A stretch of DNA of 64,000 nucleotides from a virus. Its lineage: Duplodnaviria > Caudoviricetes. The notes beneath the pieces are model-generated. The model was not told the origin of the DNA. It saw only the letters and a list, made by a program, of their open reading frames with translations, and ran no database searches. The DNA lies in IMG/VR virus record IMGVR_UViG_3300046492_000458, positions 1,645 through 65,644 of that record. One strand, 5' to 3'. Both the position numbers and the translations under genes were made by a program. The stretch's first letter is position 1. Every line of letters begins with the position of its first letter. This document shows, one piece after another, positions 23,009-35,357 of the stretch.

Positions 23009-23655
23009 GCGCCCCGCAGAACTCGGCGGCCGCGAAGGCTAAGGCGATCCGTGAGCATGCCCGGCGGGGCGTGTGGCGGCGTGTCACCGCGTGGGCGGGC
23101 CTGAACCCGGCCGCGGCCCGCGCGGACGCCAAGGCGGCCCTGTGGGCGCACGGAGCCCAGGGCGAGGCCGCCACCGAAGCCCTCCTCGCACCCCTCGTAC
23201 AGGCGGGCTGGACGATCCGGCACGACCTCCGATTAGCCGGGGCCCGGTGGAACGTGGACACGGTCCTCGTCTCCCCGTGCGGGACGGCAGTGGTGGTGCT
23301 GGACACGAAGGCATGGCGCCGGAACTGGCCCACCAGGCTGGTCCGCGGCCGGGTGTACTGCGGAGACGAGGACCGGCACGGCCAGGTGGAGAAGGTCGCC
23401 GGATACGCGGAGCGGATATCCCGGGCGCTCGGCCTGCCGGGGGTGAAGGTGCTTCCACTACTGGTGGTGCACGGCTCCCCGGTGGCCGGCGGGCACCTGG
23501 ACGTCCGGATGCCCGGGATGACGGACCCGGTGTACGTGCTTGGCCCGGACTGGCTGGTCCCGACGCTGGCGGCCGCTCCGAAGGCCCGGGATCCTCGGCG
23601 TGCGGCCGCGGTGGCCGCGAGGGTGGACGCGGTACTTCACCCGTACAGGGAATGA
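23005..23655 (+). CDS. NERD (nuclease-related) domain protein
   Basis: GAQGEAAT, WTIRHDL, NVDTVLVSP, VLDTKAW. Confidence 0.85.
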   Translation: MSAPQNSAAAKAKAIREHARRGVWRRVTAWAGLNPAAARADAKAALWAHGAQGEAATEALLAPLVQAGWTIRHDLRLAGARWNVDTVLVSPCGTAVVVLDTKAWRRNWPTRLVRGRVYCGDEDRHGQVEKVAGYAERISRALGLPGVKVLPLLVVHGSPVAGGHLDVRMPGMTDPVYVLGPDWLVPTLAAAPKARDPRRAAAVAARVDAVLHPYRE

Positions 23656-23700
23656 GGCGTACGGTGCTGGTGCACCACATTGGGGGGCGCCCATACGAAG

Positions 23701-23740
23701 GCGGCCCGTCGTTCTCCGGAGCGGCGGGCCGTCTTTTTTT
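23701..23740 (+). terminator. Intrinsic terminator
   Basis: GCGGCCCGTCGTT...AGCGGCGGGCCGT hairpin plus T7. Confidence 0.8.
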
Positions 23741-23745
23741 GTGCC

Positions 23746-23766
23746 TACACTCGAACACATGCACGA
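23746..23766 (+). promoter_or_regulatory. -10 box with a LexA SOS box overlapping a leaderless start
   Basis: TACACT (23746-23751); TCGAAC-ACAT-GCACGA (23751-23766) covers ATG 23759. Confidence 0.7.
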
Positions 23767-24100
23767 TGATCTGCCGCCTGACCTGCCGCGACTCGAAGCG
23801 ATCGAGACGTACCTGGCGCTCACTCTCGCGCGGGTGCGGGAGAAGAAGGCGGACCTGCAGCGCCGGGAGCAGGAGCGGCAGCGCGGTGCGGAGGCGCGGC
23901 CGCCGACACCGGACTGGCTGATCGAGCAGGCGCTGAGCCGGGACACGCCGCCCGTGTACGTGCACGTGGGCGGCTGCCACATGACGGGGAAGCGCTCGAA
24001 AGGCGTGAGGCGGGAAGCGGCGTTGCGAGCCCTGGTGGAGGGTGTGCCCGCGTGTTCGCATTGCCGTCCGGACTCGGAGCTCGGCTACCTCGAGGGATGA
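23759..24100 (+). CDS. DUF6233-like domain protein
   Basis: VHVGGC...AALRALVEGVPACSHCRPDSELG C-terminal motif. Confidence 0.8.
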   Translation: MHDDLPPDLPRLEAIETYLALTLARVREKKADLQRREQERQRGAEARPPTPDWLIEQALSRDTPPVYVHVGGCHMTGKRSKGVRREAALRALVEGVPACSHCRPDSELGYLEG

Positions 24101-24178: not shown

Positions 24179-24658
24179 TCAGAGGCCGGCGACGATCAGG
24201 CGGCGGAGCATCTCTGCGCGGCTGACCCCTTCCTGCGCGGCGCGGTCGTCGACCTTCTTGATGTCGTCGGGGTCAAGGCGGGTCTCAACCTTGGGCCCCA
24301 CCGTGGGCCTGCCTCCAAGGCTCGGACCGGATTCGTCGGGGGCGTCAGGGAAGTGCTCGGCCAGCACGGACTCCGCTTCGTCGCCTCCGCTCTTGATGAC
24401 CCAGTCGCGGGCCTCGTCGTCGGTGAGGAAACTCCAGCGGTCGGGCCCGTTGAACTCGCGCCTGGCGTCACAGTGTTCAACCCAGCGTCCGCCCTTGGTG
24501 CGGTACAGGTCGGAGCGGGTGGTCTGGAGGCCGGACACCTTGCCGCGGTGGTTGCTGCCGTCCCAGTAGCTGTCCTCTTCCAGGATGTGGGTGGCGGCGT
24601 CCAGATCGAAGTAGCCCAGTCGGATGCCGTCGGCGTCGTGGATGGTGATGCGGTTCAT
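24179..24658 (-). CDS. Protein with C-terminal CopG/RHH domain
   Basis: GGRPTVG.KVETRL...KVDDRAAQEGVSRAEMLRRLI; N-terminal LYRTKGGRWV. Confidence 0.8.
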   Translation of the reverse strand: MNRITIHDADGIRLGYFDLDAATHILEEDSYWDGSNHRGKVSGLQTTRSDLYRTKGGRWVEHCDARREFNGPDRWSFLTDDEARDWVIKSGGDEAESVLAEHFPDAPDESGPSLGGRPTVGPKVETRLDPDDIKKVDDRAAQEGVSRAEMLRRLIVAGL

Positions 24659-25506
24659 CAGTAGTCGCCCTTCAGTGAGGTGATGTAGGTGGAAGCCTCG
24701 GCCTTGGACAGTTCTTCGATTCCAGCGCGGTCGGTGGGGCCCTGGAAGAATCCGCCGCCCTCGCCGGTGCGGGCCCGCACGGTCAGGAGCTGGAGGATGT
24801 AGTCGACCTGTCGGGCGGTGGCCAGCTCGCCCTTGGTGCGGCGGGCCTCGGCGAGCTGCTCTTCGCGGGCCTCGCGGACGGTCGCTTCGGCGGCGGCGAT
24901 GGCGTCCTTCTCCGCCTTCTCCGCGATGCGCTGTTCGGCGCCCGCGGCATGCTGATTCGCCCACTGGATGAGGATGTCCACGACGGTGGTGCCGGCGGGG
25001 GTGTTCTTGCCTTCGGCGGTCCAGTCGGCTTCGATCCGCATCCGCAGGTCGCTCGGGTCGCCTTTGGTGGATCCGGTGACGACCCAGTAGGTGGTGCGGT
25101 CTATGCGGCCGGCGCGGGGCAGGGCCTTTTCGATGCGGAAGCCGTCGGGGGTGTTCTCGTAGAACTTGGCGTAGAACTTGGCGAGGTCCTCGGTGAAGAA
25201 GGGCTCGCCGTGGATGCGCAGGTCCTTGCCGGGACCGTATCCGGCAGGGGTTCCGTCGGTGCGGACGATGGAGTACGTGGTGCGGGCTTTGCCGTACTGG
25301 ATGGTGCTTCCTTCTTCGACGCGGTACTTCGGCTCGTCGGTCATGCGGGCCTTCCTCTGGCCGATGGCAATGCGGGCGGCGAGGGAGGCGATGTCGATGA
25401 TCCAGCGGCCGGCCTGCTTGACGGCGGCGACGGCTCCGACGCGGCACCAGGTGCGGATGGTGGCGACGGTGACGTTGGCCTGGGTGGCTGCGGCGGTGGT
25501 GTTCAT
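24658..25506 (-). CDS. Protein with N-terminal HTH (MerR/HTH_17-like)
   Basis: MNTTAAATQANVTVATIRTWCRVGAV...GRWII; GGGAGGGG RBS. Confidence 0.8.
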   Translation of the reverse strand: MNTTAAATQANVTVATIRTWCRVGAVAAVKQAGRWIIDIASLAARIAIGQRKARMTDEPKYRVEEGSTIQYGKARTTYSIVRTDGTPAGYGPGKDLRIHGEPFFTEDLAKFYAKFYENTPDGFRIEKALPRAGRIDRTTYWVVTGSTKGDPSDLRMRIEADWTAEGKNTPAGTTVVDILIQWANQHAAGAEQRIAEKAEKDAIAAAEATVREAREEQLAEARRTKGELATARQVDYILQLLTVRARTGEGGGFFQGPTDRAGIEELSKAEASTYITSLKGDY

Positions 25507-25536
25507 CAGGTTCCCCTCCCTGCAAGCGGATGTTTC

Positions 25537-25578
25537 CGCATGCGTTAACTATGACAGACGGTTAACGCATGCGTCAAC
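25537..25578 (-). promoter_or_regulatory. Promoter overlapped by a 13-bp inverted-repeat operator
   Basis: CGCATGCGTTAAC-N11-GTTAACGCATGCG; on the minus strand TTGACG-N18-CATAGT. Confidence 0.75.
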
Positions 25579-25590
25579 CGTTTTGAGGGG

Positions 25591-25624
25591 AAACAAAGAG
25601 CCCCGACCCAGAAGGGCCGGGGCT
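25591..25624 (-). terminator. Intrinsic terminator of the CRISPR-like RNA
   Basis: Minus-strand RNA AGCCCCGGCCC-UUCU-GGGUCGGGGCU then CUUUGUUU; the G-U pair forms only in this orientation. Confidence 0.75.
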
Positions 25625-25690
25625 AACCCCGCATCGGCGGGGACAACTCGAAGTACTGAACTGGAACACCCCCGCAGCAGCGGGGAGCAA
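25619..25690 (-). CRISPR. Cas-less mini-array: two degenerate type I-E-like 29-nt repeats with a 14-nt spacer
   Basis: TTGCTCCCCGCTGCTGCGGGGGTGTTCCA (25690-25662), GTTCAGTACTTCGA, GTTGTCCCCGCCGATGCGGGGTTAGCCCC (25647-25619); both have the 5+6+4+6+8 geometry of I-E repeats. Confidence 0.72.
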
Positions 25691-25718
25691 GGCCGGTGTG
25701 TCGCGCACCAGACCGCCC

Positions 25719-25741
25719 ACTATGGCATGCGGCACTGACAA
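25719..25741 (-). promoter_or_regulatory. RecA-NDp/PafBC-type DNA-damage promoter motif
   Basis: TTGTCAGTG-CCGCATGC-CATAGT matches TTGTCRGTG-N8-TANNNT with a C at the first -10 position. Confidence 0.6.
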
Positions 25742-35300: not shown

Positions 35301-35334
35301 GGGCACCTCCAGGCAGGTCGACGGTCGTAGAGAT

Positions 35335-35357
35335 AGCACAGCGCACGCCACTGACAA
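35335..35357 (-). promoter_or_regulatory. Second RecA-NDp/PafBC-like motif, upstream of the exonuclease
   Basis: TTGTCAGTG-GCGTGCGC-TGTGCT (weak -10). Confidence 0.45.

What the first reader, a model, noticed from the sequence alone, without database searches (positions are those of the whole stretch)
25591..25741. Cas-less CRISPR-like small RNA with a 14-nt spacer, a DNA-damage-type promoter and its own terminator
Seen on the minus strand, in order: TTGTCAGTG-N8-CATAGT, a short leader, repeat TTGCT-CCCCGC-TGCT-GCGGGG-GTGTTCCA, a 14-nt insert GTTCAGTACTTCGA, repeat GTTGT-CCCCGC-CGAT-GCGGGG-TTAGCCCC, then a hairpin with a U-rich tail. The repeats differ in loop and flanks but keep the stem and the 29-nt geometry. 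No cas gene is in the window. Established: type I-E repeats have this 5+6+4+6+8 layout; Cas6e leaves an 8-nt 5' handle; normal spacers are about 32 nt; each Cas7 covers 6 nt; phage RNA anti-CRISPRs (Racr) and short-spacer regulatory crRNAs exist in other type I subtypes. Inference: processing would give a 43-nt crRNA, and 32-14=18 is exactly three Cas7 fewer. The RNA may be a decoy that titrates host Cascade, or a guide for binding without cutting (e.g. repressing a cas promoter), made when DNA damage induces the phage.
Basis: partly seen in the sequence, partly recalled or inferred. Interest (0 to 1): 0.92.

Follow-up and report, generated by a model that had tools for sequence, protein, structure and literature searches.

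The report
Phage mini-CRISPR with 14-base guide
A Streptomyces-type phage carries a tiny, cas-less imitation of a type I-E CRISPR array with one very short, conserved guide, most likely an RNA that hijacks the host's CRISPR proteins; this trick was described recently, so it is a new example and its target is still unknown.

Summary
On the minus strand at 25740-25593 lie a PafBC-type promoter motif, a short structured leader, two type I-E-like repeats around a 14-nt insert, and an intrinsic terminator. It is not chance. I found 12 further units of the same build: 6 viral contigs, 2 Streptomyces genomes and 4 metagenome contigs. In all of them the repeat stems, the 8-nt handle and guide positions 1-5 and 7-11 are kept, while loops and flanks drift. 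Guide positions 6 and 12 vary freely, as expected for a Cascade-bound guide. The terminator shows compensatory changes. The promoter motif is kept in 8 of 12 related arrays.

The closest known kind is the viral crRNA-like anti-CRISPR RNAs (Cracr, bioRxiv 10.1101/2024.10.29.618823), with Racr decoys next. This scan has already filed several Streptomyces phage examples on other DNA.

The defining Cracr feature was not found. There was no host CreR twin in 401 Streptomyces genomes and no site in cas promoters of 32 I-E loci. A weak resemblance to a conserved CRISPR-leader box lacks an AAG PAM.

Verdict: a real new member of a known kind. The guide is unusually short, its target is unknown, and its promoter looks DNA-damage-inducible.

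The parts
25719..25740 (-). PafBC-type promoter motif: a GTC-containing -26 element, ten bases, then a -10 of the form A-N3-T
   Evidence: Sequence. Single match in the window. Fits the consensus quoted in PMC8635444. The same motif at the same distance is seen in 8 of 12 related arrays read.
25691..25718 (-). Short leader with a hairpin just 5' of repeat 1
   Evidence: Fold. Relatives carry a tetraloop hairpin at the same place, with one compensatory change.
25662..25690 (-). Repeat-like unit 1: 5-nt flank, 6-bp stem with 4-nt loop (25685-25670), 8-nt 3' handle (25669-25662) that would become the 5' handle of the small RNA
   Evidence: The same stem plus handle occurs in true 61-nt-period arrays. 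The first 7 handle bases are identical in 11 of 12 aligned units; L183 carries the common Streptomyces handle instead.
25648..25661 (-). 14-nt guide-like insert
   Evidence: Family alignment: positions 1, 3 and 7-10 are invariant; 2, 4, 5 and 11 vary by transitions only; 6 and 12 vary between G and C; 13-14 are free. An identical guide is in metagenome contig L184.
25619..25647 (-). Repeat-like unit 2: stem-loop at 25642-25627; its 3' handle is merged into the terminator stem
25589..25624 (-). Intrinsic terminator (11-pair stem, 4-nt loop, T-rich tail)
   Evidence: In the 7-sequence alignment, 8 of its 11 pairs are kept through changes on both sides.
25548..25577 (-). Separate sigma-70-like promoter of the downstream two-gene operon, overlapped by inverted repeats
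   Evidence: 9 of 12 hexamer matches, 18-nt spacer; sequence.
24179..25506 (-). Linked operon. The 282-aa protein (25506-24658) has an HTH-like N-terminus and no family. The 158-aa protein (24655-24179) has a C-terminal ribbon-helix-helix.
   Evidence: Pfam RHH_1 at 24.5 bits against a cut-off of 20.5. PHROG transcriptional repressor. Homologues lie directly downstream of the array in 7 of 16 related loci. Function unknown; whether it belongs to the same system is inferred from linkage only.

Best explanation
The unit is a phage-encoded type I-E crRNA-like regulatory RNA, in the class the literature calls viral crlRNA or Cracr.

Shown: a primary transcript of about 115-120 nt is delimited by a PafBC-type promoter motif and a covarying terminator.

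Inferred: the host's Cas6e cuts at the base of each repeat hairpin. This leaves a 43-nt RNA made of an 8-nt 5' handle, a 14-nt guide and a 21-nt 3' hairpin.

Inferred from E. coli work: this RNA nucleates a shortened Cascade with about three fewer Cas7 subunits. Such a complex can recognise an 11-14-bp site but cannot license Cas3.

The RNA would then act in two ways. It takes Cas proteins away from the host's own crRNAs. It also parks the captured complex on a conserved site, acting as a repressor and not as a nuclease.

The site itself is not identified. It is not in the cas3-operon promoters I examined.

The promoter suggests the RNA is made when DNA damage activates PafBC, that is, at prophage induction. 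This is inferred from the motif only.
For: 1. Architecture at the stated coordinates.

2. Repeat 1 equals genuine I-E repeats, including the 3' handle. True arrays with 61-nt spacing share it. Streptomyces I-E arrays in 20 cas loci have the same 5+6+4+6+8 layout and orientation. Cas7e is present in 127 of 301 sampled Streptomyces genomes.

3. Family: 13 units with 11 distinct guides. In a search that was blind to the guide, 46 viral loci matched. Only 6 of them, plus the window's own unit (read from the window in the script), had a real repeat 1 upstream, and all 7 carry this same guide family.

4. Pattern of constraint. Stems, handle and guide positions 1-5 and 7-11 are kept, while the loops are nearly all different. 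Positions 6 and 12 switch between G and C. These are the positions that I-E Cascade flips out of the hybrid (structural knowledge, recalled).

5. The terminator has 8 pairs with compensatory changes.

6. The promoter fits the PafBC consensus (passages of PMC8635444) and is kept in 8 of 12 related arrays.

7. In E. coli, 14-nt spacers are processed, assemble with fewer Cas7, and still recognise targets without interference (abstract of PMC5159557).

8. Viral crlRNAs, including I-E ones and hosts in Actinomycetota, are described in bioRxiv 10.1101/2024.10.29.618823 (abstract and sections read).
Against: No target was found.

- The guide seed has no in-register match in promoter regions of 20 canonical and 12 divergent Streptomyces I-E loci. 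There were 3 scattered hits and 0 hits respectively, none with an AAG PAM.
- No host CreR-like twin of the guide was found. Only 1 of 401 Streptomyces genomes matched, and that match is a prophage copy.
- The two lysogens that carry related units gave no Cas8e or Cas7e match.
- No transcript evidence. The one RNA run only covers a neighbouring gene of a relative.
- 5 of the 12 aligned units were found with patterns that fixed part of the guide. Only the 7 guide-blind units are unbiased for positions 1-11.
- Processing, loading and PafBC dependence are all inferred.
Confidence: 0.6

Rival explanations
1. Pure decoy (Racr-like). The RNA only soaks up Cas6e, Cas5e and Cas7, or builds dead-end subcomplexes. 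The 14-nt insert is just a linker of the right length.
For: - No target was found in any host locus examined.
- No host CreR twin was found.
- By the working rule of the Cracr preprint, viral repeat units without a CreR/CreA-like guide are 'likely Racrs' (section read).
- I-E Racrs have been shown to work (passages of PMC10651486).
Against: - A linker should drift like the loops. Here positions 1, 3 and 7-10 are invariant and 2, 4, 5 and 11 change only by transitions in 12 units, while the loops differ almost everywhere.
- Every real short-spacer unit with this handle carries this guide family.
- The unit has two repeats, not a solitary one.
Confidence: 0.2
2. Guide against the host's own CRISPR leader. 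The captured Cascade sits on a conserved box about 25-45 nt upstream of the first repeat. There it blocks pre-crRNA transcription or spacer integration.
For: 34 Streptomyces I-E leaders share conserved boxes.

- The best seed score of the 11 guides is at least 9 of 10 in 3 of 34 leaders, and at least 8 in 11 of 34. In 3000 random windows of the same loci the shares are 0.4% and 7.7%.
- Against composition-matched shuffles, the count at 9 or more is 3 versus a mean of 0.48, and 2 of 300 shuffled sets reach it.
- 6 of the 11 hits fall on the same box, at 32-40 nt.
Against: - At a score of 8 or more the excess is weak: 11 versus 6.36, with 16 of 300 shuffled sets reaching it. For the box alone it is 4 versus 1.49, with 15 of 300.
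- The leaders are related to one another, so the counts are not independent.
- Most leaders have the box with a different spacing.
- The bases at the PAM side of the best sites are T-rich, not the AAG used with Streptomyces I-E (passages of PMC11560957).
- In leaders of arrays whose repeats carry the same handle as repeat 1, the best score is 8 of 10 in 2 of 7 and never 9.
Confidence: 0.1
3. Weapon between mobile elements. The guide marks a conserved site in rival phages or plasmids. It would repress them or prime the host to take up spacers against them.
For: - In E. coli, 14-nt spacers cause primed adaptation without interference (abstract of PMC5159557).
- Related arrays also carry full-length spacers of about 33 nt (L006, L017, L027).
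- No self-target exists in 5 whole virus records of the family.
Against: - No target element was identified.
- A conserved 11-nt seed is too short to search in the collections with the tools at hand.
- A full-length spacer would serve this purpose better.
Confidence: 0.06
4. No CRISPR-related function: two G+C-rich hairpins plus a terminator at the end of an upstream transcript, or a decaying remnant of a captured array.
For: - Rfam finds no family above threshold.
- The loose stem pattern alone is not significantly enriched in the window.
- Hairpins followed by T-rich tracts matched my metagenome pattern by chance.
Against: - The handle and guide are conserved in 13 units from different elements, with their own promoter and terminator.
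- Repeat 1 is identical to functional array repeats.
- A remnant would not keep the guide while losing the loops.
Confidence: 0.04

Closest known systems
Cracr RNAs and Cracr arrays (viral crRNA-like anti-CRISPR regulators; Liu et al., bioRxiv 10.1101/2024.10.29.618823, version of 2026-07-28; abstract and sections 7-8 read)
   Same: - Encoded on a phage, outside any cas locus.
- Degenerate repeats of the host's type flank a shortened guide.
- Has its own transcription unit.
- Relatives carry multi-guide arrays.
- I-E systems and Actinomycetota hosts are covered in that work.
- Shorter guides give smaller effector complexes there too.
   Different: - The defining link to a host CreR/CreA guide and to a cas or creT promoter was tested here and not found.
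- The guide is 14 nt, against 24 nt in the tested Salmonella I-E example.
- The promoter is of the PafBC (DNA-damage) type.
- 'Streptomyces' does not occur in the main text. Their supplementary tables, which I could not open, may list this very contig.
Racr / solitary repeat units (Camara-Wilpert et al. 2023, PMC10651486; passages read)
   Same: - A phage small RNA that mimics CRISPR repeats.
- Own promoter.
- I-E examples proven.
- Often sits next to anti-CRISPR genes.
   Different: Racrs are single repeats without a meaningful spacer. This unit has two repeats and a conserved guide. By that paper's own finder, a partial second repeat within 100 bp is set apart as a mini-array.
Host CreR/CreA crlRNA modules of type I and V-A loci
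   Same: Two degenerate repeats around a short guide that binds without cleavage. I saw a host mini-array of this build upstream of the cas8-like gene in 9 divergent Streptomyces I-E loci.
   Different: Those lie inside cas loci and their guides are unrelated to this one. This unit is on a phage.
E. coli Cascade with artificially shortened spacers (Kuznedelov et al. 2016, PMC5159557; abstract read)
   Same: The same subtype and the same 14-nt spacer length. Fewer Cas7 subunits; recognition without interference.
   Different: That was an engineered construct; here the short guide is natural and conserved.

Membership tests
Type I-E CRISPR repeat | 29-nt unit: 5-nt flank, 6-bp G+C stem, 4-nt loop, 8-nt 3' handle, in the orientation of transcription | tested here: met
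   Same layout in arrays of 20 Streptomyces I-E loci.
Type I-E CRISPR repeat | The same repeat occurs in genuine arrays with about 61-nt period | tested here: met
   Met for repeat 1 (stem plus 7 handle bases): L008, L010, L012, L014. Repeat 2 was not tested in this way.
Type I-E CRISPR repeat | Cleaved by Cas6e at the 3' base of the stem | not testable with these tools
   Inference only.
Cracr (viral crlRNA) | On a virus or plasmid, outside a CRISPR-Cas locus | tested here: met
   The window lies in an IMG/VR virus record. No Cas6e or Cas7e match in the record.
Cracr (viral crlRNA) | The guide shares at least 9 PAM-proximal bases with the guide of a host CreR/CreA | tested here: not met
   A pattern of handle gap, guide and second repeat matched 1 of 401 Streptomyces genomes, and that match is a prophage copy. 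No seed match beside repeats in 32 cas loci. This is a sample only; other genera were not searched.
Cracr (viral crlRNA) | The guide matches a cas or creT promoter next to a PAM | tested here: not met
   20 canonical and 12 divergent I-E loci: 3 and 0 seed hits, none in a promoter and none with AAG.
Cracr (viral crlRNA) | Cas-dependent maturation and repression of the target | not testable with these tools
   Needs experiments.
Racr / solitary repeat unit | A single repeat with no second repeat within about 100 bp | tested here: not met
   Two repeats lie 43 nt apart. Definition taken from the SRUFinder passage.
Racr / solitary repeat unit | Co-location with anti-CRISPR genes | tested here: inconclusive
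   The adjacent operon (282-aa unknown protein, 158-aa protein with RHH) is linked to the array in 7 of 16 loci. It has no similarity to any solved or named protein.
PafBC-dependent promoter | GTC-containing -26 element, ten bases, then a -10 of the form A-N3-T | tested here: met
   Consensus taken from PMC8635444. Kept in 8 of 12 related arrays.
PafBC-dependent promoter | PafBC binding and induction by DNA damage | not testable with these tools
   No RNA data cover the unit.

The most novel reading that the evidence does not exclude
The conserved 11-nt seed does not copy a host cas regulator. Instead it steers a three-Cas7 mini-Cascade onto a conserved box in the host's CRISPR leader. One DNA-damage-induced phage RNA would then shut off production of all host crRNAs, or the uptake of new spacers, at the moment of prophage induction.
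Probability: 0.1. Interest if true: 0.75.

Novelty: new member of a known kind. Interest (0 to 1): 0.45.

Why it matters
The unit adds a well-delimited, conserved family to the newly described class of phage RNAs that turn CRISPR proteins against their owner. Three features make it worth a bench test:

- The guide has the shortest length at which I-E Cascade is known to recognise DNA.
- Its seed is conserved across at least 13 elements, yet it matches neither a host regulator RNA nor a cas promoter. A new kind of target may therefore be involved.
- The promoter suggests that anti-CRISPR RNA synthesis is coupled to the actinobacterial DNA-damage response.

A natural 43-nt guide that builds a minimal Cascade could also be useful for compact CRISPR interference tools in Streptomyces.

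Tried and rejected
Rfam: 6 matches, all far below the gathering scores. They are driven by the terminator.

cas-promoter target:
- The 8 guides known at that point, with up to 2 mismatches, gave 10 scattered hits in 20 I-E loci and no positional clustering.
- The degenerate seed gave 3 hits in those 20 loci and 0 in 12 divergent loci.
- The cas3 upstream regions were read by eye.

Host twin: only the prophage copy in 1 of 401 genomes.

Self-target: the seed occurs only inside the unit in 5 whole virus records, 2 of them complete. In the window there are 5 other sites with 3 mismatches, none convincing.

Other spacers of related arrays against the 20 loci: chance level. One hit in a conserved cas3 coding stretch (6 loci, 2 mismatches) is probably chance.

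An apparent likeness between the guide and the sequence after the lone repeat of divergent I-E loci vanished in the 9-locus alignment. That stretch is a variable hairpin.

Metagenome scan: 39 loci. 4 are true family members. The other 35 are ordinary spacers in ordinary arrays or terminators, about what chance predicts.

Covariance models: model R1 had the second stem set one column off. It was rebuilt as R2. The search with R2 was swamped by ordinary arrays (956 matches) and showed no host twin.

Sequencing runs: the DNA is held by rhizosphere metagenome runs, some of which may be its source. The one RNA run covers only 25360-25509 at reduced identity and gives no cover of the small RNA, which says nothing either way.

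The 282-aa and 158-aa proteins: no PDB relatives by sequence. The Atlas gave only HTH_17 leads below its own reliability line.

Two scripts printed far too much because of loose patterns. I used only the leader rows, which were repeated cleanly.

Full report
What is there.

The window lies in a 65.6-kb IMG/VR virus record with about 69% G+C, estimated 82% complete. The following elements sit on the minus strand:
- A promoter-like motif at 25740-25719.
- A 28-nt leader that can form a hairpin.
- A first repeat-like unit at 25690-25662.
- A 14-nt insert at 25661-25648.
- A second repeat-like unit at 25647-25619.
- A terminator whose 11-pair stem (25624-25599) begins inside the second unit's 3' handle and is followed by a T-rich tail.

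The exact six-pair stem with a four-base loop occurs only at these two places in the record. The reversed control pattern gives none. Downstream, a separate sigma-70-like promoter with inverted repeats (25577-25548) drives two genes. No Cas6e or Cas7e family match exists in the record.

It is a type I-E mimic.

A scan of viral contigs for the stem plus the first seven handle bases returned 19 loci. Four are true arrays with 61-nt spacing, so repeat 1 is a bona fide I-E repeat. Cas7e is present in 127 of 301 sampled genomes of the genus that holds a related prophage, which is Streptomyces by the record titles. The arrays of 20 fetched cas loci have the same layout and orientation, with several handle variants.

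It is a family.

The same scans and three further ones gave 12 more units of the same build:
- Six viral contigs: L003, L007, L009, L015, L020, L022.
- Two Streptomyces genomes: L027 and L029, both in prophage-like context.
- Four metagenome contigs: L184, L160, L165, L183.

One further scan asked only for the handle, 10-24 free bases and the start of a second stem, so it was blind to the guide. It returned 46 viral loci. Only 6 of them, plus the window's own unit (read from the window in the script), have a real first repeat, and all 7 carry the same guide family. The rest are chance hits in coding sequence.

In the 12-sequence core alignment the constraint is as follows:
- The stems are invariant.
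- The first seven handle bases are identical in 11 units. L183 has the common Streptomyces handle.
- Guide positions 1, 3 and 7-10 never change.
- Positions 2, 4, 5 and 11 change only by transitions.
- Positions 6 and 12 switch between G and C.
- Positions 13 and 14 are free.
- The two loops differ in nearly every sequence.

Five of the twelve units were found with patterns that fixed part of the guide. The seven guide-blind ones show the same picture. Every sixth base of the guide is flipped out in I-E Cascade (recalled structural knowledge). Free positions 6 and 12 inside an otherwise fixed 11-nt seed are what a Cascade-bound guide predicts.

The terminator is real. Eight of its eleven pairs are kept through changes on both sides.

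In relatives the unit is often the last member of a longer array with two to four short or full-length spacers under the same promoter and leader.

Promoter.

The published PafBC motif is a GTC-containing element at -26, ten bases, then a -10 of the form A-N3-T (passages of PMC8635444). The window fits it exactly. The same motif at the same distance is present in 8 of the 12 related arrays whose upstream region I read: the window, L184, L022, L027, L003, L007, L009 and L017. It is absent in L020, L029, L006 and L015. Alone in the window the match is not significant. A second, poorer copy stands at about 35357. Induction by DNA damage is an inference.

What is known.

Viral crRNA-like RNAs that load into host Cas proteins and make them repress cas or toxin promoters are described in a preprint. 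It covers 219 candidates, I-E arrays and hosts in Actinomycetota (bioRxiv 10.1101/2024.10.29.618823; abstract and sections 7-8 read). Its working definition needs at least nine PAM-proximal bases shared with a host CreR/CreA guide. Units without that are called likely Racrs.

Racr decoys are single repeats (PMC10651486, passages).

In E. coli, 14-nt spacers still give target recognition (priming) but not interference, and they assemble with fewer Cas7 (abstract of PMC5159557).

Notes of this scan show that similar cas-less I-E mini-arrays on Streptomyces phages were already followed up on other DNA and filed under Cracr. I used them as leads only.

Search for the target.

- In 20 canonical I-E loci, cas3 to cas7 form one operon. 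A reversed array lies upstream in many of them.
- The guides gave only scattered hits there and none in 12 loci of a divergent Cas7e class.
- No unit with this guide exists in 401 Streptomyces genomes apart from the prophage itself.
- No second site exists in five whole phage records of the family.
- The two lysogens gave no Cas8e or Cas7e match, although one has an array.
- The divergent loci do carry a host mini-array of the CreR type upstream of their cas8-like gene, conserved in nine genomes. Its guide is unrelated.

The one lead is the CRISPR leader.
- 34 leaders share conserved boxes, and the reverse complement of the guide resembles the middle box.
- Seed scores of 9 or more of 10 occur in 3 of 34 leaders, against 0.4% of random windows. 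In composition-matched shuffles the mean is 0.48, and 2 of 300 sets reach 3.
- At 8 or more the excess is weak (11 against 6.36; 16 of 300 sets).
- Six of the eleven hits fall on the same box.
- Against it: the leaders are related to one another, and most have another spacing.
- The PAM-side bases are T-rich, whereas Streptomyces I-E is used with AAG (passages of PMC11560957).
- In seven leaders of arrays that share the handle of repeat 1, the best score is 8 of 10.

I rate this idea at about one in ten.

Neighbours.

The 158-aa protein ends in a ribbon-helix-helix (Pfam 24.5 bits; a PHROG repressor family). The 282-aa protein has no family and only HTH_17 leads. Homologues of one or both lie directly downstream of the array in 7 of 16 related loci. 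This is the layout of an anti-CRISPR gene with its repressor, but nothing shows that function.

Expression.

DNA runs from rhizosphere metagenomes hold the stretch unchanged. The only RNA run covers a neighbouring gene of a relative, not the unit.

Conclusion.

The feature is real. It is under selection as a crRNA-like RNA and belongs with the viral crlRNA/Cracr class by architecture. It fails the one sequence test that defines a Cracr in the sample searched, and a conserved guide argues against a mere decoy.

I commit to a guide RNA that builds a shortened, non-cutting Cascade and competes with host crRNAs (0.6). Its site is unknown. Rivals are a pure decoy (0.2), a leader-directed guide (0.1), an inter-element weapon (0.06) and no CRISPR role (0.04).

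It is a new member of a known kind. Its points of interest are the minimal 14-nt guide, the PafBC-type promoter and the missing target.

Noticed in passing
window 24179-25577 (-); also L027, L017, L165, L183, L184: A two-gene operon sits directly downstream of the mini-array in 7 of 16 related loci. It encodes a 282-aa protein with an HTH-like start and a 158-aa protein with a C-terminal ribbon-helix-helix, and it has its own promoter overlapped by inverted repeats. The layout resembles an anti-CRISPR gene with its repressor; the function is unknown.
   Followed up: partly
L076, L082, L083, L085-L091, L097 (Streptomyces genomes G074, G268, G270, G373, G360, G144, G281, G244, G319): A divergent class of I-E loci (Cas7e scores near 190 bits) has a host mini-array about 100-250 nt upstream of the cas8-like gene. 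It consists of a degenerate repeat, a conserved guide of about 27 nt, a good repeat and then a variable hairpin. It looks like a CreR-type self-regulator.
   Followed up: partly
34 leaders in L051-L079 (listed): Streptomyces I-E CRISPR leaders share four conserved boxes within 70 nt of the first repeat. Arrays whose repeats carry the handle of repeat 1 have a different leader, with a direct repeat of a 6-nt word.
   Followed up: partly
G001 (Streptomyces sp. NPDC015220) and G002 (S. flaveolus JCM 4032): The two genomes that carry related prophage units gave no Cas8e or Cas7e match. G001 nevertheless has an I-E array of at least 10 repeats on contig 17, which may be orphaned.
   Followed up: no
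window about 35330-35357 (-): A second copy of the GTC-containing upstream element, with a poor -10 (G instead of A at its second base).
   Followed up: partly
L027 6050-6320; L009 6680-6960; L017; L006; L165; L183: Related arrays hold further recurrent short spacers (at least three families, about 20-25 nt) and some full-length ones. Their targets were not found in 20 cas loci.
   Followed up: partly
window 25691-25718 (-) and relatives: The leader hairpin just 5' of the first repeat is kept in the family with a four-base loop and one compensatory change. Part of it resembles the guide of the host mini-array of the divergent I-E loci, but in another register. Unexplained, possibly chance.
   Followed up: no
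window 23540-24100 (+): DUF6233 protein (76 bits) beside the operon; also a PHROG family of unknown function.
   Followed up: no
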